IMG/VR virus record: IMGVR_UViG_3300046642_000296
Location: 1 to 64,000 of that record
Origin: a virus
Length of the DNA stretch: 64,000 bases
Direction: 5' to 3' (one strand)
Part shown: piece by piece, positions 1,621-34,810 of the stretch
Numbering within the stretch: position 1 is the stretch's first letter
Layout of the letters: every line of letters starts with the position of its first letter
The notes under the pieces: model-generated
The model's input: only the letters and a program-made list of their open reading frames with translations
The model's database searches: none
What the model was told of the DNA's origin: nothing
Position numbers and translations under genes: made by a program

Positions 1621-1665
1621 CGCCCTTGATTCGTGTTTTGTTTGGGGTCTGTCTGTCAGAAAGTG

Positions 1666-1694
1666 TTGACAGACAAGATTCAGTCAGACAGAAT
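1666..1694 (+). promoter_or_regulatory. Host sigma70-type promoter
   Basis: TTGACA (1666-1671), a 17-nt spacer, then CAGAAT (1689-1694), embedded in TCTGTCTG/CAGACAGA inverted repeats. Confidence 0.6.
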
Positions 1695-1711
1695 TAGAGT
1701 TATGTTTGAGG
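1694..1711 (+). promoter_or_regulatory. Conserved 18-bp intergenic motif copy
   Basis: TTAGAGTTATGTTTGAGG. Confidence 0.7.
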
Positions 1712-1719
1712 GAGGCGAA

Positions 1720-1851
1720 ATGTATTCCATCTGGAAGATCATTCTGACCGTCGCCCTGATCACAGAGCATTGGTCCCGTGCAGTGGACCGTGTACGTCCT
1801 GCATCCCCATCGCAACCTCGGGAGAGGCCCGAGCAGGACGAGTATGGCTAG
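1720..1851 (+). CDS. Small hypothetical peptide (43 aa, hydrophobic N-terminus)
   Basis: GGAGG RBS precedes ATG 1720; the product begins MYSIWKIILTVALITEHW. Confidence 0.5.
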   Translation: MYSIWKIILTVALITEHWSRAVDRVRPASPSQPRERPEQDEYG

Positions 1852-1879
1852 GGCAGACCTGAACCAGTAACTGCACATG

Positions 1880-2032
1880 TGGGCATTCAGGAGTGCTTTG
1901 GATGCCGCCGCTGGAGATATGGCTGGGCCTCAAGGCCGAAGGCAGAGGTGAATGCGCTGCGGCGCACATCAGTCCACTGTCAACGCGGAACAAGCGGATT
2001 CGACCGGGAGCTAAAGCACTCCGCAATGCCCA
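1880..2032 (+). ncRNA. Candidate structured non-coding RNA (~150 nt)
   Basis: TGGGCATT-ca-GGAGTGCTTTGG (1880-1901) pairs with CTAAAGCACTCC-gc-AATGCCCA (2011-2032). It has internal hairpins and is followed directly by a terminator. Confidence 0.55.
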
Positions 2033-2038
2033 TCAACG

Positions 2039-2070
2039 AGAGGTGAAGATCGCAAGGTCTTCGCCTCTTT
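2039..2070 (+). terminator. Rho-independent terminator-like hairpin
   Basis: AGAGGTGAAGATC-GCAA-GGTCTTCGCCTCT-TT. Confidence 0.65.
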
Positions 2071-2093
2071 CCATTTGTAAACGAGGAGAACCC

Positions 2094-2546
2094 ATGAACC
2101 AGAACAAATTGCTGGATGAAGTCGAGCATTGGCTCGAGCACCACCACACGATCCAGGGCCACCCGTTCAGCGAGGAAAGCCTGCTGGAGCGTATTCGCAA
2201 CGTGCGTGCGGACATCAAGCGCCAGGATGCGATCGCCGGCGTGGCCAAGCCGATGAACGGCAAGGATGTGATTCCGGAGATGACCGACCGGCTCGGTAAG
2301 CACTGGTCGCAACCGGATCGCCAGTACATATTCATCCGTGACGGCAAGGCGCACCTGTGCATGCAGGACTTCAGCAAGCTCAGCCAGTACGACACCACAT
2401 TCCCGTCGGGTGTCTACCCCGGCAAGATGTGGAAGCGCATCAACGGCGGCGTTGCGCACCTGTGCTGGTACGGCGAGGAAGTGAACGGCCGCTGTGAGAT
2501 CCACCACATGCAGATCGAGGTGGCTCAGGAAGCGGTGGCAGCGTGA
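2094..2546 (+). CDS. Hypothetical phage protein
   Basis: AGGAG RBS before ATG 2094 (MNQNKLL...). The C-terminal part has a LGKHWSQP...YDTTFPSGVYPGKMWKR segment. Confidence 0.75.
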   Translation: MNQNKLLDEVEHWLEHHHTIQGHPFSEESLLERIRNVRADIKRQDAIAGVAKPMNGKDVIPEMTDRLGKHWSQPDRQYIFIRDGKAHLCMQDFSKLSQYDTTFPSGVYPGKMWKRINGGVAHLCWYGEEVNGRCEIHHMQIEVAQEAVAA

Positions 2547-2734
2547 GCCATAAATTCAGCGAAGAGCGCAACCAATGGGTTGTCCAGGAAATGGAGCGCC
2601 GACTGGCAGAACTGATCCGGACCGCAAATAGCCTTGGTGTGGTGCTCACCATCGAGACAGTACCGCAGCTGCCGCTGCCCATGGGCAACCACCAGATGGT
2701 AGGCCATGTCCGACCTGCGCGCGGCAACTACTGA
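2543..2734 (+). CDS. Hypothetical protein
   Basis: GTGA overlap with the upstream stop; phage-like codon usage. Confidence 0.7.
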   Translation: MSHKFSEERNQWVVQEMERRLAELIRTANSLGVVLTIETVPQLPLPMGNHQMVGHVRPARGNY

Positions 2735-2749
2735 ACCAAGGGGAAGGCG

Positions 2750-2875
2750 ATGAACATTTTCGAATTCATGCAGAACAATCCGGTCCTGACGACTGTCATC
2801 TTCGCGCTGGCTGTGTACGGAGTGGTGGGCATCGTCGAAGCACTCATGGGCACCAAGGGAGGAAAGCGGCCGTGA
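2750..2875 (+). CDS. Small single-TM membrane peptide (41 aa)
   Basis: Read directly: MNIFEFMQNNPVLTTVIFALAVYGVVGIVEALMGTKGGKRP, with a purine-rich RBS. Confidence 0.7.
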   Translation: MNIFEFMQNNPVLTTVIFALAVYGVVGIVEALMGTKGGKRP

Positions 2876-3111
2876 AACAGATGATTGCACCGAACGGCCT
2901 GCGCATTGTCGGCACAGCTGACACTGTGAATGCGACGGCCGAAGTGACCGCATGGAGTGATGACGGTGTGCCGGATTACGACGGCGCAAGCGGCAGCGTG
3001 GTGGACTGGAACAGCCAGCTCACCCGCACGAACGCCAATGGCGTGATGCTCGTGGTCGATGAAGACGGCGAGGTCTGGCCGAAAGACATGTGCAAGCTGG
3101 TGGACGAATGA
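2872..3111 (+). CDS. Hypothetical protein
   Basis: GTGA coupling with a GGAGG RBS. Confidence 0.7.
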   Translation: MKQMIAPNGLRIVGTADTVNATAEVTAWSDDGVPDYDGASGSVVDWNSQLTRTNANGVMLVVDEDGEVWPKDMCKLVDE

Positions 3112-3602
3112 GCCAACTACCCAACGATATGGTGTCCTTCGTCGGTGCAATCACTGGGCTGGCGCCGTGGCAGAAAGGGCTCGTCGAGAAGCTGTCGAAG
3201 TCAAACTTCAGCAGCATCGAGCAGCGCATCCTGGCGCACATGCCTCACCCGCTGGACAGGTCCGGCCTAGATGATGTCATCCTGGGTGTGGACTGGGCCG
3301 ATGGTGTCGACCGCACTGCCATGGTTGCGGCTCAACTCCGCGGCGATGGCGTAATGGTCATCCTCGACGATCTGATGATGGTTGAGTACAAGACGGTCCC
3401 GGCCAGCGACATCTACAAGACCCGCTCGACACCGTTCCGTAATCCCGGCCTGATCGACGAGCTGCTGGCCATGGAAGCCCGTCTTCCTCCTCTGGCTCAG
3501 GAAGAACCGGAGCCAAGGGCAAGGAACGGCGCCAAGGCCAGCAAGAAAACCGAGCGGGCGAAAGCCAAGCTCCCCTTTTATCTGAAGAACCGGAGATTCT
3601 GA
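3108..3602 (+). CDS. Hypothetical protein
   Basis: ATGA coupling to the upstream gene (MSQLPND...). Confidence 0.7.
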   Translation: MSQLPNDMVSFVGAITGLAPWQKGLVEKLSKSNFSSIEQRILAHMPHPLDRSGLDDVILGVDWADGVDRTAMVAAQLRGDGVMVILDDLMMVEYKTVPASDIYKTRSTPFRNPGLIDELLAMEARLPPLAQEEPEPRARNGAKASKKTERAKAKLPFYLKNRRF

Positions 3603-3707
3603 ATGACCTTCTTCCAGTATCTGAATGACAACAGCGTCACCGTGATCATCGTTACTGCGCTGATTGTGTTCGGCGCCGTCGAAATCACCAAGCTGCTGCG
3701 CAAGTGA
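3603..3707 (+). CDS. Small single-TM membrane peptide (34 aa)
   Basis: Read directly: MTFFQYLNDNSVTVIIVTALIVFGAVEITKLLRK; it abuts the upstream stop. Confidence 0.65.
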   Translation: MTFFQYLNDNSVTVIIVTALIVFGAVEITKLLRK

Positions 3708-3712
3708 TCGCC

Positions 3713-3805
3713 ATGCGCAACTTCTTTCTCATTGGTAACTGTCCGAAGTGTGGCAAGCCGTGGCGTGACCACTACTTCGGCGTACCTGAGCCGGAATGTC
3801 CATAG
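3713..3805 (+). CDS. Tiny Cys/His peptide (30 aa)
   Basis: MRNFFLIGNCPKCGKPWRDHYFGVPEPECP fills the gap in a tightly packed operon. Confidence 0.5.
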   Translation: MRNFFLIGNCPKCGKPWRDHYFGVPEPECP

Positions 3806-3814
3806 GAGGTTCTG

Positions 3815-3976
3815 ATGCACCGCAACTGCAAGACGTACCGGGACGTGAAGGTCGCTCCCGGTTCGCAGCTCTACCAGGCGCTCGAAGACGGCGACAAAGC
3901 CAAGGCCGCAGCCATCTACGAGCAGTGCGAAAAGGATCTGGCCAAACTCGAAGGACGTAAAGATGGACAACCTTGA
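3815..3976 (+). CDS. Hypothetical protein (53 aa)
   Basis: AGGAGG RBS; the product begins MHRNCKTYRDVKVAPGSQLYQALEDG. Confidence 0.65.
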   Translation: MHRNCKTYRDVKVAPGSQLYQALEDGDKAKAAAIYEQCEKDLAKLEGRKDGQP

Positions 3977-4181
3977 ACTGTTACGTGCGGCCGTCGCTGC
4001 ACGCATCGCGTACTGGAACGCAGTCGGTGCGCTTGAAAAGGCACTGTGCCCGGATGGCATCAGCGATCGGGCCAGCGACAAGCTGCACGACTTCCTGAAC
4101 GATCTGGCTGCAGCAGGAGAGCCGGAACAGGTAACGGAAGCTGAGCTCGCCCGTGTGATTGAAATCGCAGGGTGGGTATAG
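3963..4181 (+). CDS. Hypothetical protein
   Basis: ORF in the + strand operon with an RBS. Confidence 0.65.
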   Translation: MDNLELLRAAVAARIAYWNAVGALEKALCPDGISDRASDKLHDFLNDLAAAGEPEQVTEAELARVIEIAGWV

Positions 4182-4190
4182 GGGATTCTG

Positions 4191-4526
4191 ATGAACAGAG
4201 GCCAACAAGCACGGCTCCTCGCCATTGCGGAGTCGCTGGGCAAGAGCACCAACGTGCTGGACAGGGATGCAGCAGTTGCTATGCATGAGCTGCTGGCACC
4301 GAGGTGCACGCATCGCATCGTGGATGCCCGTAACAAGGTCGTGCAGTCAGGCTTCATGTGCATTGACTGCGGCGCGGTGTTTGCAGGTATCCATCCGGCG
4401 ACGCAGCCAGTGCTGATAGAAGCAGGCATTGCCGGTGCCATGCCAGGCACCGATGCCTGGACCATCACGGTCTGCTCAGCCGAAACCGTTCCGACTGGAA
4501 CGCAGCTTTACAAGAAAGGTGTGTAA
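4191..4526 (+). CDS. Hypothetical protein (CTH...CIDC, possible Zn ligand set)
   Basis: ORF in the + strand operon. Confidence 0.65.
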   Translation: MNRGQQARLLAIAESLGKSTNVLDRDAAVAMHELLAPRCTHRIVDARNKVVQSGFMCIDCGAVFAGIHPATQPVLIEAGIAGAMPGTDAWTITVCSAETVPTGTQLYKKGV

Positions 4527-5003
4527 GTGTCCCGGACTCATTTTCATCGATCGGTTAAACGGCCGGTCAAGCTGCCCGCACTGTTCCGGCGCTCACAGCA
4601 AGCTGAACTCAGTCTGAAGCTGATCCCGCATGCCCACCTGCTATCCCTGACGGATGGCCGTGGAGATGAGGACAGCTTCCTCACGATTGTGTTCCGTGTG
4701 ATCGTCGGCACCACACTAGTCTGCTATGTCGATGATGCCGGCCGTGAAGAGCTCGAAAAGATCTTCAAGCCTGCAATCAACAGCCTCATTTCGATAGGTG
4801 ACCGTGCAAGCAAGCTCGGCAAGTTTGGTTGTGCAGGTGATGAGTTGCTGTCCATCAAGGAAGCGCTGAATCTCACCGACGATCTGCAGACAGTTTCCAC
4901 CCGTAGACAGCAGGCTGAGATGTGCGCGAAGGTCGAGAAGTTCGTGGGCGGCTTCGAGTACACCATGCGCAACCTCAAGACACTTCAAGGAAGGTATCAG
5001 TGA
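4527..5003 (+). CDS. Hypothetical protein
   Basis: Abuts the upstream stop and overlaps the thyX start. Confidence 0.7.
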   Translation: MSRTHFHRSVKRPVKLPALFRRSQQAELSLKLIPHAHLLSLTDGRGDEDSFLTIVFRVIVGTTLVCYVDDAGREELEKIFKPAINSLISIGDRASKLGKFGCAGDELLSIKEALNLTDDLQTVSTRRQQAEMCAKVEKFVGGFEYTMRNLKTLQGRYQ

Positions 5004-5908
5004 CCATCACCGCATCCATCATCGCAGACAGTATCAGTCCGGCCGGCAAACGGCTCACCACGATGCAGCTGCGCTATCCCCGCTTCATTCACGCGGAGTT
5101 CATGACACACCGCGTGTTCAGCCGCAACGCATCGAGCAGCCGGGCCATCCCGGTGGCCAAGATGATCGAAGACCTTCGCCGTGATCCGGCCATGCCGGTC
5201 TACTGGGGCAGCAACAAGCCCGGCATGCAGGCAGGGGATTCACTTCATGGCATCGATCTGGACCATGTGAAAGCAACCTGGTTGCAAGGCATGGACCGGG
5301 CAATCGGATCCGCCGAACGCATGATGGAACTGGGTCTGCACAAGCAGATTGCCAACCGGGTGCTGGAGCCATGGGCGCATATCAACGTGGTCGTCACAGG
5401 CACCGAGTGGGCCAACTTCTTCAAGTTGCGCTGCCATGCGGATGCCCAACCCGAGATCAAGGTGCTGGCTGAAGCGATGGAGCAGGCCATGCAGCTGTCA
5501 CTCCCCCAACTGGTTCAGGAAGGTGAGTGGCACCTGCCCTATATTCAGTTTGACAGGGATTGGGCAGTCGCCTCGAAACATTGTCAGAAAGGCCGAATCA
5601 CCCGCGACATGCCCGGCAAGCACGAGATCTACGCCGTGCTGCGCAAGGTGTCGACCGCCCGTTGTGCCCGTGTCAGTTACCTGACCCATGACGGCCGGCA
5701 GACCACTGTGCAGGAAGACATCGACCTGTATCACCGGCTGGTCGTGGCCGAGCCACTGCATGCATCACCAGCTGAGCACCAGGCCACGCCAGACCGTTGG
5801 CTGGAAGGTGAGAAACACGGTTACTGGGAGCATGAAGAACTGCACGGCAACCTGGTTGGCTGGCAACAGCACAGAAAAATGTTGCCCGGCGAACATACTC
5901 CTGGTTAG
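5000..5908 (+). CDS. thyX: FAD-dependent thymidylate synthase ThyX/Thy1 (N4 gp30-like)
   Basis: Motifs HAEFMTHRVFSRNASSSRAIP, HKQIANRVLEP, LRCHADAQPEI and HASPAEHQA; GTG start at 5000. Confidence 0.9.
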   Translation: MTITASIIADSISPAGKRLTTMQLRYPRFIHAEFMTHRVFSRNASSSRAIPVAKMIEDLRRDPAMPVYWGSNKPGMQAGDSLHGIDLDHVKATWLQGMDRAIGSAERMMELGLHKQIANRVLEPWAHINVVVTGTEWANFFKLRCHADAQPEIKVLAEAMEQAMQLSLPQLVQEGEWHLPYIQFDRDWAVASKHCQKGRITRDMPGKHEIYAVLRKVSTARCARVSYLTHDGRQTTVQEDIDLYHRLVVAEPLHASPAEHQATPDRWLEGEKHGYWEHEELHGNLVGWQQHRKMLPGEHTPG

Positions 5909-6352: not shown

Positions 6353-8848
6353 ATGCAAGTAGCTGACATTCAAGGCGCTGCCACCGCAGCCACACTCGGT
6401 GCACAGAAGACCACTGCAATGGGCATGGTCGAGGATGCTTCGTTCCTCATGATGCTCTCGACCAACCTGTATTCGAACCAGCAGCTGGCGTGCATCCGTG
6501 AAACGCTGTGCAACGCCTGGGATGCTCACATCGAAGCGGGCACGACCAATGTGCCGGTGAAGATCACGATCACCGAAGAGAACGAGCTGATCATCGAAGA
6601 CAGCGGCCTCGGTATTCCCGATGACCGGTTCGAGCAGATCTATGGCACGTTTGGCGGCTCGACCAAGCGCCAGAACAAGGCCGTCACCGGTGGCTTTGGT
6701 CTTGGCTGCAAGTCGCCCTGGGCTTACGCCGAATCCTTCCGGGTGATCTCCGAGAACCAGGGAAAGAAAGTGATCTACAACCTGGTCAAGGCCAGTGTTG
6801 AAGCCGAAGGCCTGCCGGCCATCACCCGTGTGCTGGAGACGGCTACTGATCGCACTGGCCTCACGGTTCGCTTCCAGCTTCAGGAAAGCGATGTGCGCCA
6901 GATGCGGCACTACATCGAGGCTGTGGCCTGCCACGGTGACATGCTGGTGGATCTGCATCACATGGGCCGCAAGGAAGCGGTGACCAACGAAGAGATAGGT
7001 GTCGAGCGTCTGCGCACGATCAACCTGGATCCGACACCAGGCAGCTACGACGTGAGCGACAGCTGGTATCACCACTACATGGGCAACCATCAGCTGTTCG
7101 TACGCTACGGTGCAGTCATCTATCCGATGCTGCAGACACCCGGCACACAGAAGGCAGTGGATCTGCTCAGGCAGTTCATGGAGATCGTCGGCTTCAAGCG
7201 CATGGTCGTGCAGGCGGCGCCCGGTACGCTGGCACTGACCCCGAACCGTGAAACGCTCTCGTCGAGCAAGATGACCGAGAACGGCATCACCGATTTGTGC
7301 GTGGCACTCGTCGCCCGCATCGAAGACGACATCATCAAGCAGATCCCGGCATCGATCCTGCAGGCAGCGGAGCGGCTGGCCAAGGGTGACCAGTTCCACA
7401 CGTCGCTGGAGCATTACGCCAGCCTCTCGGATGCGATCACACCGGTCCCGGTTCGCCGCTATCTAAGCTCGCAATTGGGCATGGCCAAGTACGCCAAGTA
7501 CCTGGCCATGCTGAAAGCGGCTGAGCACCGGGGCTTCAAGAACGCTCACGTGTTCCAGAAGAAGTCGTCGACGCATGAGTTTCACAAGCTGCGCCGGCGC
7601 ATGGTCGGCAAGCACTGGAAGGACAGGGACGCCGTGAAGTTTGCATTCCTCAAGCATCACGTCCTGCGACCAGTCTCGCGTGTGTTCCAGAAGCATGCTG
7701 AGCTGCTGAAGCTGAGCGAGTTCCACTGCTCGGAACATTTCTATCACGGCAATTCCAATCGGCATCCGTCGTTGCTCGTGGACCTTGATCTGGATAACTT
7801 TGCGCACATGCAGCAGCTGCTGGACACGCCCACCGTGTTCATCACTTCGCGCATCAAGCGGTTCAAGGACACCCTTGATTGCTGCCCGTGGATCACGCAC
7901 GGCGCGGCGTCGTGGACCTACCGGATTGTGCCGAACGACGTGCGTAAGCCCGCCATCATCAAGGCGTTCGAGGACGCTGGCATGAAGGTCATCGACATCA
8001 CGCTCAACCATGACTGGGATGACGTGGCAGCCGAGCTCGAGGAGGAGAAGCTGCGCCGTGCAGCAACCCGCCGTGCGCGGTCGGGCCAGCTGGATCTGCC
8101 CGTCGGCTTGAAGAAGACGCCCAACGCACTGATGTCGCTGTGCAACGTCTACGACGAGGCCGGTCGCCGCAAGATGGGCCACGACCGCATCAAGCTGATG
8201 AAGTCGGATCTGGAAACAACGGACACCCCGCTTTTCTTCGTGCCGCTCGAATCCGTCTCCTCTGGCTCGCTGGGCCGCTTTGGTTCCTACCTGGATCTCA
8301 CTGATGAAGAGCGCAAGCTCGGCGTCGTCGTGCGTACCGGGACGGAAAAGAACATGGCCATCAAGCGCGGTGCCGTGCACGTCGACAAGTTCCTCGCCCG
8401 GCGTTTGTGGGATCGGGTCCAGTCGAAGGAGTACCAGACCTACCGCACGAAACAGTGTAGGTCCGCAGTGTTCGACGACCATCACATCGACCCGGATCTG
8501 GTCACGCTGCTCGATTACCTCGGCATCAAGCTCGCAGGCTTTGACAAGCTCAGGGATGACCCGGACATGGATCGTGTCACGGATCGAATCAAGTCCCTGA
8601 CGGGCAATGACTTCATGTGGACCATCGAAAACCTGCCCACGGAGCAGCTGCAGCATTACTCCAACGTGCAGGGTTCCATGCTCGAAGAGTTGCCGTGCGT
8701 GAAGAAGCTCAAGGCATTGAAGGATGACTGGATGCTGTCCGGGCTGCTGTCCAACGTCAGCCATCCGCTGGACCGGATCAAGGAATCTCCCGAGCGCCAT
8801 GCCGCTCTCAAGTCGCTCGTCATGAGCGTATTCAAAAACGGAAACTGA
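6353..8848 (+). CDS. rIIA: rIIA-like protein (GHKL/Hsp90-type ATPase N-domain; N4 gp33-like)
   Basis: Motifs LYSNQQLACIRETLCNAWDAH, IEDSGLGI, GGSTK and GGFGLGCKSPWAY; adjacent to rIIB. Confidence 0.88.
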   Translation: MQVADIQGAATAATLGAQKTTAMGMVEDASFLMMLSTNLYSNQQLACIRETLCNAWDAHIEAGTTNVPVKITITEENELIIEDSGLGIPDDRFEQIYGTFGGSTKRQNKAVTGGFGLGCKSPWAYAESFRVISENQGKKVIYNLVKASVEAEGLPAITRVLETATDRTGLTVRFQLQESDVRQMRHYIEAVACHGDMLVDLHHMGRKEAVTNEEIGVERLRTINLDPTPGSYDVSDSWYHHYMGNHQLFVRYGAVIYPMLQTPGTQKAVDLLRQFMEIVGFKRMVVQAAPGTLALTPNRETLSSSKMTENGITDLCVALVARIEDDIIKQIPASILQAAERLAKGDQFHTSLEHYASLSDAITPVPVRRYLSSQLGMAKYAKYLAMLKAAEHRGFKNAHVFQKKSSTHEFHKLRRRMVGKHWKDRDAVKFAFLKHHVLRPVSRVFQKHAELLKLSEFHCSEHFYHGNSNRHPSLLVDLDLDNFAHMQQLLDTPTVFITSRIKRFKDTLDCCPWITHGAASWTYRIVPNDVRKPAIIKAFEDAGMKVIDITLNHDWDDVAAELEEEKLRRAATRRARSGQLDLPVGLKKTPNALMSLCNVYDEAGRRKMGHDRIKLMKSDLETTDTPLFFVPLESVSSGSLGRFGSYLDLTDEERKLGVVVRTGTEKNMAIKRGAVHVDKFLARRLWDRVQSKEYQTYRTKQCRSAVFDDHHIDPDLVTLLDYLGIKLAGFDKLRDDPDMDRVTDRIKSLTGNDFMWTIENLPTEQLQHYSNVQGSMLEELPCVKKLKALKDDWMLSGLLSNVSHPLDRIKESPERHAALKSLVMSVFKNGN

Positions 8849-34792: not shown

Positions 34793-34810
34793 TAAGAGAT
34801 AAGTTTGAGG
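34793..34810 (+). promoter_or_regulatory. Conserved 18-bp motif copy just upstream of the vRNAP start (opposite strand)
   Basis: TAAGAGATAAGTTTGAGG. Confidence 0.7.

What the first reader, a model, noticed from the sequence alone, without database searches (positions are those of the whole stretch)
1648..2070. Self-contained cassette: host sigma70 promoter, 43-aa peptide, ~150-nt structured RNA, terminator
Seen in sequence: a TTGACA-N17-CAGAAT promoter, an 18-bp motif over the start site, and a small ORF with a GGAGG RBS (1720-1851). Next, 1880-2032 is closed by a 20-bp stem (8 bp + 2x2 loop + 12 bp). It contains nested CCGCT/AGCGG and GGCTG/CAGTC pairings, hairpins GGCC-TCAA-GGCC and TGCGC-TGCG-GCGCA, and a T-loop-like GGATTCGACC. 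A terminator hairpin follows at 2039-2070. I could not match it to tRNA, tmRNA, 6S, SRP or ribozyme patterns. Inference: a phage ncRNA transcribed by host RNAP independently of the N4 polymerase cascade. It could be an RNA decoy or anti-defence factor, or one half of a peptide/RNA pair.
Basis: partly seen in the sequence, partly recalled or inferred. Interest (0 to 1): 0.8.

Follow-up and report, generated by a model that had tools for sequence, protein, structure and literature searches.

The report
New structured RNA gene in N4-like phages
An uncultured N4-like soil phage carries its own small gene for a tightly folded, roughly 155-base non-coding RNA. The RNA matches no catalogued family, is shared with three related phages, and has an unknown job.

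Summary
Window 1648-2070 is a separate transcription unit. It has a sigma70-type promoter (TTGACA-N17-CAGAAT), a 43-codon ORF with a GGAGG ribosome site, and a ~155-nt structured RNA (1878-2036, z -5.2). A strong terminator follows at 2038-2069.

Three related N4-like contigs in IMG/VR carry the same RNA at the same place. The 22-24 bp closing stem has compensatory changes at 12 of 24 pairs. G-U pairs and model scores favour the + strand. All reading frames are closed in the relatives, so it is non-coding.

- **No known family:** Rfam 15, ARAGORN, YrlA and TROVE searches all find nothing.
- **Not a riboswitch:** the terminator folds independently of the RNA.
- **Peptide is optional:** it is present in 2 of 4 phages, so this is not an obligate peptide/RNA pair.
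- **Independence from the phage polymerases is not shown:** the start site lies inside an 18-bp motif found at 12-21 intergenic sites in all four genomes. That motif is probably a phage promoter.
- **Context:** other N4-like phages hold tRNA/tmRNA operons with sigma70-like promoters in this neighbourhood, while these four phages have no tRNA at all.

Best reading: a new family of stand-alone stable phage RNA, probably protein-binding. Its function is untested. The scan has noted comparable but unrelated RNAs in other N4-like phages.

The parts
1650..1675 (+). Inverted repeat (9 bp arms at 1650-1658 and 1667-1675) that overlaps the -35. In L163 and L164 the equivalent hairpin is followed by a T run and looks like the terminator of the upstream operon, with the -35 in its loop.
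   Evidence: Read from the sequence.
1666..1694 (+). Sigma70-type promoter: TTGACA, 17 nt, CAGAAT.
   Evidence: TTGACA and a -10 (AATAAT, TATATT, TACATT) at 17-18 nt are kept in L162, L163 and L164.
1694..1711 (+). Copy of the genome-wide 18-bp motif (TTAGA-N-ATAA-S-TTTGAGG), a candidate phage-specific promoter and leader. It covers the expected start site.
   Evidence: 12-21 sites per genome in four genomes. It is also kept upstream of the RNA in the peptide-less L162 and L163.
1720..1851 (+). 43-aa ORF with a hydrophobic N-terminal 15 residues and a polar Pro/Arg-rich tail ending in EYG. GGGAGG lies 4 nt upstream. The ORF is optional: it is present in the window and L164 and absent in L162 and L163.
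   Evidence: No database relative and no Pfam or PHROG match.
1840..1876 (+). 37-nt segment (end of the ORF plus 25 nt) that is identical in several strain variants in soil and rhizosphere runs. ACUGCAC at 1868-1874 can pair with GUGCAGU at 1779-1785.
   Evidence: depth 50-160 with no differences. (both halves kept in L164).
1878..2036 (+). Structured RNA. P1 closing stem is about 1879-1901 with 2011-2033. P2 is 1908-1913 with 1984-1988. P4 is 1921-1925 with 1970-1974. The distal part (about 1926-1969) is variable. The junction GGAACAA is conserved. The hairpin is CGG-AUUCGA-CCG at 1995-2006.
2038..2078 (+). Intrinsic terminator: 14-bp stem, GCAA loop, T-rich tail.
   Evidence: It is conserved with compensating changes in all four phages and folds independently of the RNA.
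2094..2546 (+). First gene downstream (150 aa, PHROG 24427, function unknown). It starts a run of + strand genes up to about 5908 with no motif copy of their own.

Best explanation
This is a phage gene for a free-standing, stable, structured RNA of a new family.

**Shown**
- The unit is: promoter, optional small-peptide ORF, RNA, terminator.
- The RNA is a three-way junction closed by a 22-24 bp stem. Its junction nucleotides are conserved (CUGMCG, GGAACAA). It has a small hairpin with the loop AUUCG and one long arm with a variable tip.
- It is non-coding and read on the + strand.

**Inferred**
- Host RNA polymerase starts at the near-consensus sigma70 promoter and stops at the terminator, which gives a short RNA.
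- The overlapping 18-bp motif lets a phage polymerase start there too.
- The long closing stem serves as a processing and stability stalk, an RNase III-type substrate. Cleavage there would free the core from the peptide mRNA and from the terminator.
- The conserved junction and loop bind a protein of the host or the phage, so the RNA acts in trans as a scaffold or decoy.
- It occupies the part of the genome where other N4-like phages keep tRNA/tmRNA operons.
For: - **Fold:** z is -5.2 in the window and -7.7 in L164.
- **Homologues:** four copies at the same locus score 68-184 bits against the covariance model.
- **Pairing:** 94% of cells are paired, against 33-39% when partners are slid. Fifteen pairs changed on both sides, 12 of them in P1, and 0 of 500 shuffles reach this.
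- **Strand:** G-U pairs are present, and the minus strand scores only 22-29 bits.
- **Non-coding:** every frame has stops in the relatives, and the distance to the next gene differs by 10-11 nt.
- **Promoter and terminator:** both are kept in all four. Hairpins with a T run just upstream in L163 and L164 mark the end of the previous operon.
- **No switch:** blocking the terminator costs 16-20 kcal/mol, close to its own energy, and nothing re-pairs.
- **Conservation:** the RNA is as conserved as the flanking genes, 82% against 74-77%.
- **Stable-RNA context:** L169 has tRNA-Pro plus a permuted tmRNA behind a TTGACA promoter. L220, L170 and L208 have tRNA or tRNA-like genes downstream of the same dCTP deaminase.
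- **No tRNA here:** the four carriers have no tRNA or tmRNA gene.
- **Precedent:** putative small RNAs have been reported in the N4-like phage LUZ7 (PMC9163698).
Against: - No transcript data exist.
- Only four full sequences from closely related phages are available, so covariation inside the core is thin. Most P2, P3 and P4 pairs never vary.
- No partner protein is known.
- The 13 or so genes downstream (2094-5908) have no promoter motif of their own. Transcription must therefore pass this terminator, which fits a cis role as well.
- tRNA genes lie within 4 kb downstream in only 4 of 60 relatives scanned, so the 'stable-RNA slot' is a loose regularity.
Confidence: 0.5

Rival explanations
1. 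It is a cis-acting leader and processing module for the operon that starts at 2094. The folded RNA and its terminator gate or process transcripts entering about 13 downstream genes. This could work by RNase III cleavage in the long stem, by polymerase-specific read-through (host polymerase stops, phage polymerase passes), or by a put-like effect on the polymerase.
For: The order promoter, structured RNA, terminator, ribosome site, gene is kept in all four phages. No motif copy or promoter-like site lies between 1711 and 5905. Extensive, timed read-through of terminators is reported for the N4-like phage LUZ7 (PMC9163698).
Against: No alternative pairing links the RNA to the terminator, and a 22-24 bp closing stem is unlike a switching P1. 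A conserved three-way core is more than an RNase III site needs. No Rfam riboswitch or leader matches at E up to 10. Upstream transcription could also feed the operon.
Confidence: 0.25
2. It is a peptide/RNA pair resembling a type I toxin-antitoxin module. The small hydrophobic peptide would be a membrane toxin or effector, and the structured RNA on the same transcript would control its translation or stability.
For: The 43-aa and 46-aa peptides share a hydrophobic N-terminus, an RAV-x-R centre and an EYG end, and both have strong ribosome sites. A 7-bp long-range pairing and the 37-nt invariant segment next to the stop codon suggest mRNA-level control.
Against: L162 and L163 keep the promoter, RNA and terminator but have no peptide ORF, so the RNA has a role without it. 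No promoter or terminator was seen on the opposite strand. The peptide mRNA part is not unusually folded, with z of -0.1 and -1.2. The peptide has no known relatives.
Confidence: 0.08
3. It is a remnant or mimic of tRNA or tmRNA. The conserved GGAUUCGAC would copy the D-loop region of the tRNA-like domain of tmRNA and might bind SmpB or a tRNA enzyme.
For: GGAUUCGAC followed by GGGA resembles the 5' part of tmRNA (from my own knowledge of the E. coli ssrA sequence). The L169 phage tmRNA has GGUUUCGAC at that place. Relatives carry tRNA/tmRNA operons nearby.
Against: ARAGORN and the Rfam tRNA and tmRNA models find nothing, even at E up to 10. No T-arm lies between P1 and P2. The motif forms a covarying hairpin here, and its A varies (A, A, G, U). 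The RNA models do not hit the L169 tmRNA region.
Confidence: 0.07
4. It is not an RNA gene. It would be either a coding extension of the 2094 gene (the ORF from 1893) or a DNA-level element such as a cruciform or origin.
For: In the window alone, frame 0 is open from 1893 to 2546. A reverse-strand model match exists at 22-29 bits.
Against: All frames have stops in the three relatives, and the indels are not multiples of three. Changes are compensatory in the stems. G-U pairs exist only on the + strand. The promoter and terminator are on the + strand.
Confidence: 0.03

Closest known systems
Phage T4 small stable RNAs RNAC and RNAD (species 2 and 1 RNAs of the tRNA cluster)
   Same: Both are phage-encoded, structured small RNAs of unknown function. 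They sit in or beside the stable-RNA part of the genome, and nothing shows that they act as tRNA. PMC9697503 calls them RNAs of yet unknown function.
   Different: No sequence or model relation was found. T4 RNAC and RNAD are processed from a tRNA precursor transcript. This RNA has its own promoter and terminator, and its phage has no tRNA genes.
Stable-RNA operons of other N4-like phages (tRNA plus permuted tmRNA, for example L169), and the putative LUZ7 sRNA1-3
   Same: They share the same phage group and the same genome neighbourhood downstream of dCTP deaminase. They also share a sigma70-like TTGACA promoter with an inverted repeat and a terminator at the end. The LUZ7 small RNAs are reported in PMC9163698.
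   Different: The RNA itself is unrelated: R2 gives no hit in 42 other N4-like records. It has no tRNA or tmRNA features.
RNase III processing stalks (stems flanking 16S/23S rRNA; phage T7 R sites)
   Same: The 5' and 3' ends form a near-perfect duplex of 22-24 bp, about two helical turns. In the window it contains a small internal loop, as T7 sites do. This rests on established knowledge of RNase III substrates.
   Different: Cleavage has not been tested. T7 sites are simple hairpins, whereas here the stem encloses a conserved three-way core.
Bacterial and phage Y RNAs (YrlA)
   Same: A long stem is made by the two ends of the RNA, with a compact multi-arm module on top, and phages can encode such RNAs (PMC4201824).
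   Different: The phage has no Ro60/TROVE gene and no RF02553 match. There are no T and D arms. A GNCGAAG motif occurs only in the variable arm of two of the four sequences, not in the 5' stem.

Membership tests
Any Rfam 15 family | Covariance-model match at or near the gathering score | tested here: not met
   There were no matches at gathering score over the whole window. In 1870-2080 at E up to 10, the only hit was a chance match of the terminator to mir-734. Nothing overlaps the core of the RNA in the relatives; the only hit nearby, a Moco-motif match at E 1.1, touches just the 3' end of the L242 RNA and its terminator.
tRNA / tmRNA (including permuted) | Cloverleaf or tRNA-like domain with a T-arm and an acceptor stem ending in CCA | tested here: not met
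   ARAGORN found 0 genes in the window and in all four genomes. There are no Rfam tRNA, tmRNA or tmRNA_permuted hits, although these models do detect the L169 genes. No T-arm lies between P1 and P2.
tRNA / tmRNA (including permuted) | Conserved single-stranded GGNUUCGAC D-loop segment after the acceptor 5' strand | tested here: inconclusive
   GGAUUCG is invariant in the four sequences. However, it forms a hairpin with one covarying pair, and the next base varies.
YrlA / Y RNA | Encoded next to a Ro60 (TROVE) gene | tested here: not met
   PF05731 was not found in the complete 77-kb genome, and the control genomes gave the expected hits.
YrlA / Y RNA | RF02553 model match, and a GNCGAAN0-1G motif in the 5' strand of the closing stem | tested here: not met
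   There was no match at E up to 1. The motif occurs only in the inner variable arm of the window and L162.
Transcription-terminating riboswitch or attenuator | Terminator and aptamer share nucleotides, so that an antiterminator can form | tested here: not met
   In all four sequences the RNA fold is unchanged when the terminator is blocked. The energy lost (16-20 kcal/mol) is close to the terminator's own.
Type I toxin-antitoxin | Small hydrophobic peptide always paired with a regulating RNA, usually antisense | tested here: not met
   The peptide is present in 2 of 4 loci. No opposite-strand promoter or terminator was found.
RNase III processing stalk | About 20 bp or more of near-continuous duplex formed by the flanks of the mature RNA | tested here: met
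   P1 has 24 model pairs, 92.7% of cells are paired, and 12 pairs changed on both sides.
RNase III processing stalk | Cleavage by RNase III in vivo or in vitro | not testable with these tools
   No RNA data exist for this phage.
Sigma70 promoter | -35 and -10 hexamers at a spacing of 16-18 nt | tested here: met
   The window matches 10 of 12 positions. The hexamers and spacing are kept in all four phages although the spacers differ. Promoter activity was not tested.
Intrinsic terminator | GC-rich hairpin followed by a U tract | tested here: met
   The stem has 12-14 bp, the hairpin energy is -17 to -24 kcal/mol, and the tail is T-rich but interrupted. Compensating changes occur among the four. 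The simple scan did not list it because its T run is interrupted.

The most novel reading that the evidence does not exclude
This is a new class of phage RNA: a sealed three-way-junction RNA made in quantity by host polymerase from a near-consensus promoter as soon as the DNA is available. In this lineage it has taken the place of the tRNA/tmRNA operon of N4-like phages. It would act in trans by capturing a host protein, such as a nuclease, a translation or RNA-quality-control factor, or an immune sensor of structured RNA. The optional membrane peptide would be a second, separable cargo of the same cassette.
Probability: 0.3. Interest if true: 0.75.

Novelty: new variant of a known kind. Interest (0 to 1): 0.55.

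Why it matters
Small structured RNAs in virulent phages are poorly catalogued, and almost none has a known function. This one is compact and well delimited by a promoter and a terminator. It has clear compensatory changes in the long closing stem (P1), single ones in three inner helices, and an invariant junction. It also exists naturally with and without a neighbouring peptide gene.

These properties make it a practical candidate for finding what such RNAs bind. It also points to a candidate phage-specific promoter motif in a lineage of N4-like phages, a group whose middle promoters have been hard to define (PMC9163698). If the RNA is a decoy for a host factor, it would add an RNA-based takeover or counter-defence tool to this phage family.

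Tried and rejected
- **DNA similarity:** searching 1400-2600 against GenBank phages found no match.
- **Pattern scans of IMG/VR:** these returned the known relatives plus chance hits, and models R1 and R2 rejected all others (checked).
- **Metagenome scan with the 20-nt core:** 7 chance hits.
- **Genome scan with a gapped core pattern:** 25 hits, all 20 bits or less.
- **R2 over 45 whole N4-like records:** only the three known relatives, plus one hit at 18 bits.
- **Intra-phage targets of the conserved core:** nothing stands above background, and nothing is shared among the four genomes.
- **Peptide search:** no candidate.
- **Downstream protein:** only PHROG 24427 of unknown function, and no usable Atlas hit.
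- **Sequencing runs:** no RNA holder is listed.
- **Laid contigs:** further partial variants appear in soil and rhizosphere runs. Their sequences could not be recovered in full, so they were not used for covariation.
- **Virus relatives:** The genome search cannot draw relatives for a virus record.
- **Significance test:** no R-scape-type test was possible with four sequences.
- **Alternative pairing:** J23 AACAA with UUGUU before P1 is possible in three sequences but not in the window, so it was not adopted.

Full report
**What is there**

The window is the first 64 kb of a complete 77,219-bp virus record with terminal repeats, assembled from a rhizosphere metagenome. It has about 59% G+C. 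It encodes a 3,622-aa protein on the minus strand, the size of an N4-type virion RNA polymerase. Its rIIA-like protein is 45% identical to that of the N4-like Erwinia phage Ea9-2. It is therefore a distant, uncultured N4-like phage.

The finding lies in a 473-nt gap. Upstream is a 70-aa Cys-rich ORF (1408-1620) that follows dCTP deaminase (903-1439; Pfam DCD). Downstream is a 150-aa gene that starts at 2094.

**The observation**

- The promoter is TTGACA (1666), 17 nt, CAGAAT.
- The 18-bp motif lies at 1694-1711.
- The 43-codon ORF runs 1720-1851 behind GGGAGG.
- The folded block is 1878-2036.
- The terminator is a 14-bp hairpin at 2038-2069.

The segment 1870-2075 folds to -94.5 kcal/mol against -71.6 +/- 4.4 for shuffles, giving z = -5.2.

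**Relatives**

The downstream protein and the dCTP deaminase led to three IMG/VR contigs of 75-78 kb that carry the same RNA at the same place. These are L162 (184 bits), L163 (126 bits) and L164 (68 bits with R1, 86 with R2).

Forty-two other N4-like records have a dCTP deaminase homologue but no match. Pattern scans of viral, metagenome and prokaryote collections added only chance hits.

Contigs from soil and rhizosphere runs show further partial variants with different closing-stem sequences. The family is therefore wider than four, but those sequences could not be retrieved.

**It is an RNA, and it is non-coding**
- On the four-sequence alignment, 94% of cells pair, against 33-39% when partners are slid by 1-3 columns.
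- Fifteen pairs changed on both sides, 12 of them in the 24-pair closing stem, and no shuffle out of 500 reaches the observed values.
- The alignment was fitted to the model, which favours it, and the sequences are few and related. The closing stem is firm. P2, P4 and the small hairpin each rest on one double change, and the rest of their pairs never vary.
- Several pairs are G-U, and the reverse strand scores only 22-29 bits. The + strand is therefore the one that folds.
- The open frame from 1893 in the window is an accident. In L162, L163 and L164 every forward frame has 2-5 stops, and the distance from the RNA to the next start codon is 216, 227, 205 and 226 nt.

**Anatomy**

The common plan runs as follows:
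- P1 is a closing stem of 22-24 bp.
- The junction CUGMCG follows (M = A or C; AUGCCG in the window).
- P2 pairs CCGC-G with C-GCGG in three of the four sequences; in L164 it is CCGAG with CUCGG.
- A long arm follows. Its base (P3, P4) is kept in three sequences, and its tip differs in L163 and L164.
- The invariant stretch GGAACAA comes next.
- A small hairpin has the loop AUUCG-N.
- A short link leads back into P1.

**Transcription signals**

The -35 hexamer is perfect in all four sequences, and the -10 variants sit 17-18 nt away across unrelated spacers. In L163 and L164 the -35 lies in the loop of a hairpin followed by a T run. That hairpin looks like the terminator of the preceding operon, so a new unit starts here.

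The expected start site falls inside an 18-bp motif. I confirmed those copies. With a matrix built from them, I found 12-21 sites in each of the four genomes. They lie mostly in intergenic DNA and often a few bases after a terminator. Some are followed by a 5' hairpin and no ORF.

The motif is kept in front of the RNA in L162 and L163, where no ORF follows, so it is more than a ribosome site. A phage-specific promoter is the most economical reading. N4 RNAPII is said to recognise sequence motifs (PMC9163698), but this was not tested. Only the RNA cassette copy also has TTGACA upstream. The unit therefore probably has two overlapping promoters, and the claim of independence from the phage polymerases does not stand as written.

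**Not a riboswitch**

In all four sequences the RNA fold is the same with the terminator blocked or not yet made. The energy lost equals the terminator's own. No antiterminator exists.

A cis role of another kind remains possible, because no motif copy or promoter-like site lies between 1711 and 5905. Transcripts for about 13 genes must therefore cross this terminator or come from further upstream.

**The peptide**

L164 has a 46-aa counterpart. It shares a hydrophobic start, RAV-x-R and a final EYG, and it sits behind GGGAGG. L162 and L163 have none: the leader runs straight into P1. The peptide has no relatives in Pfam, PHROGs or the protein collection.

The last 12 nt of the ORF and the next 25 nt are identical in several strain variants at high depth. 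Part of that segment can pair with the middle of the ORF in both phages. This segment remains unexplained.

**Comparison with known RNAs**
- **Rfam and tRNA/tmRNA:** Rfam 15 gives nothing. ARAGORN finds no tRNA or tmRNA in any of the four genomes.
- **Y RNA:** this is excluded on three counts. There is no TROVE gene, no YrlA match, and the Rsr motif is not in the right place.
- **tmRNA-like stretch:** GGAUUCGAC recalls the tmRNA D-loop region. Here, however, it is a covarying hairpin without a T-arm partner.
- **Nearest analogues by kind:** these are the T4 RNAs RNAC and RNAD, still of unknown function, and the putative LUZ7 small RNAs.
- **Neighbourhood in other N4-like phages:** L169 has tRNA-Pro and a permuted tmRNA behind a TTGACA promoter. 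L220 has tRNA-like genes behind another. L170 and L208 have single tRNAs. This is 4 of 60 loci scanned, so it is a loose regularity.

Earlier notes of this scan describe comparable but unrelated sealed RNAs in other N4-like phages. A sequence look-up found no copy of this one.

**Verdict**

This is a real, conserved, structured RNA gene of a new family with a small known membership. The most likely reading is a stand-alone stable RNA that binds a protein, with the long stem acting as a processing and stability stalk. A cis role for the downstream operon is the main rival. The function is untested.

Noticed in passing
window 1694, 5905, 6004, 10965, 16455, 34793, 59803, 61338, 61826, 62259 (+); 60423, 60585, 62300 (-); also G000 71253: An 18-bp motif (TTAGA-N-ATAA-S-TTTGAGG) occurs at 12-21 sites in each of four related genomes. 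Sites are often just after a terminator and sometimes in front of a 5' hairpin with no ORF. It is a candidate phage-specific promoter for this lineage.
   Followed up: partly
window 1840-1876: This 37-nt segment spans the stop codon of the small ORF. It is identical in several strain variants in soil and rhizosphere runs, at depth 50-160, while the flanks differ. Only a 7-bp pairing with 1779-1785 offers an explanation.
   Followed up: partly
L163 4718-4745; L164 4950-4980: The -35 hexamer of the RNA promoter lies in the loop of a hairpin followed by a T run. One short stretch therefore seems to serve as both the terminator of the upstream operon and the promoter of the RNA.
   Followed up: no
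L169 5130-6970: Another N4-like phage has a 1.8-kb protein-free stable-RNA region downstream of dCTP deaminase. It has a TTGACA promoter (5649), tRNA-Pro (5764-5840) and a permuted tmRNA (6416-6893). The excised part of the tmRNA is closed by a stem of about 15 bp.
   Followed up: partly
L220 5424-6130: A sigma70-like promoter is followed by about 700 nt without ORFs. The stretch holds tRNA-like sequences, one of which ARAGORN calls with an odd anticodon loop, and it ends in a terminator.
   Followed up: no
Its fold is no better than shuffles (z -0.5). Only parts recur in relatives: 190 nt in G043 and about 60 nt in G043 and G045.
   Followed up: partly
L162 5055-5730 (= L003 2636-3303): The gene after the RNA in L162 has a different N-terminal half fused to the conserved C-terminal domain (PHROG 24427) of the window's 150-aa protein. 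This is a domain swap right behind the RNA cassette.
   Followed up: no
window 34793-34810 (+): A motif copy points in the + direction between two minus-strand genes, the virion RNA polymerase and the next ORF. The same arrangement is kept in G043 (878) and G044 (24910). It could drive an antisense or divergent transcript.
   Followed up: no
window 6353-8848: An 831-aa ORF is an rIIA-like protein, 45% identical to that of Erwinia phage Ea9-2. This was the closest cultured relative found.
   Followed up: no
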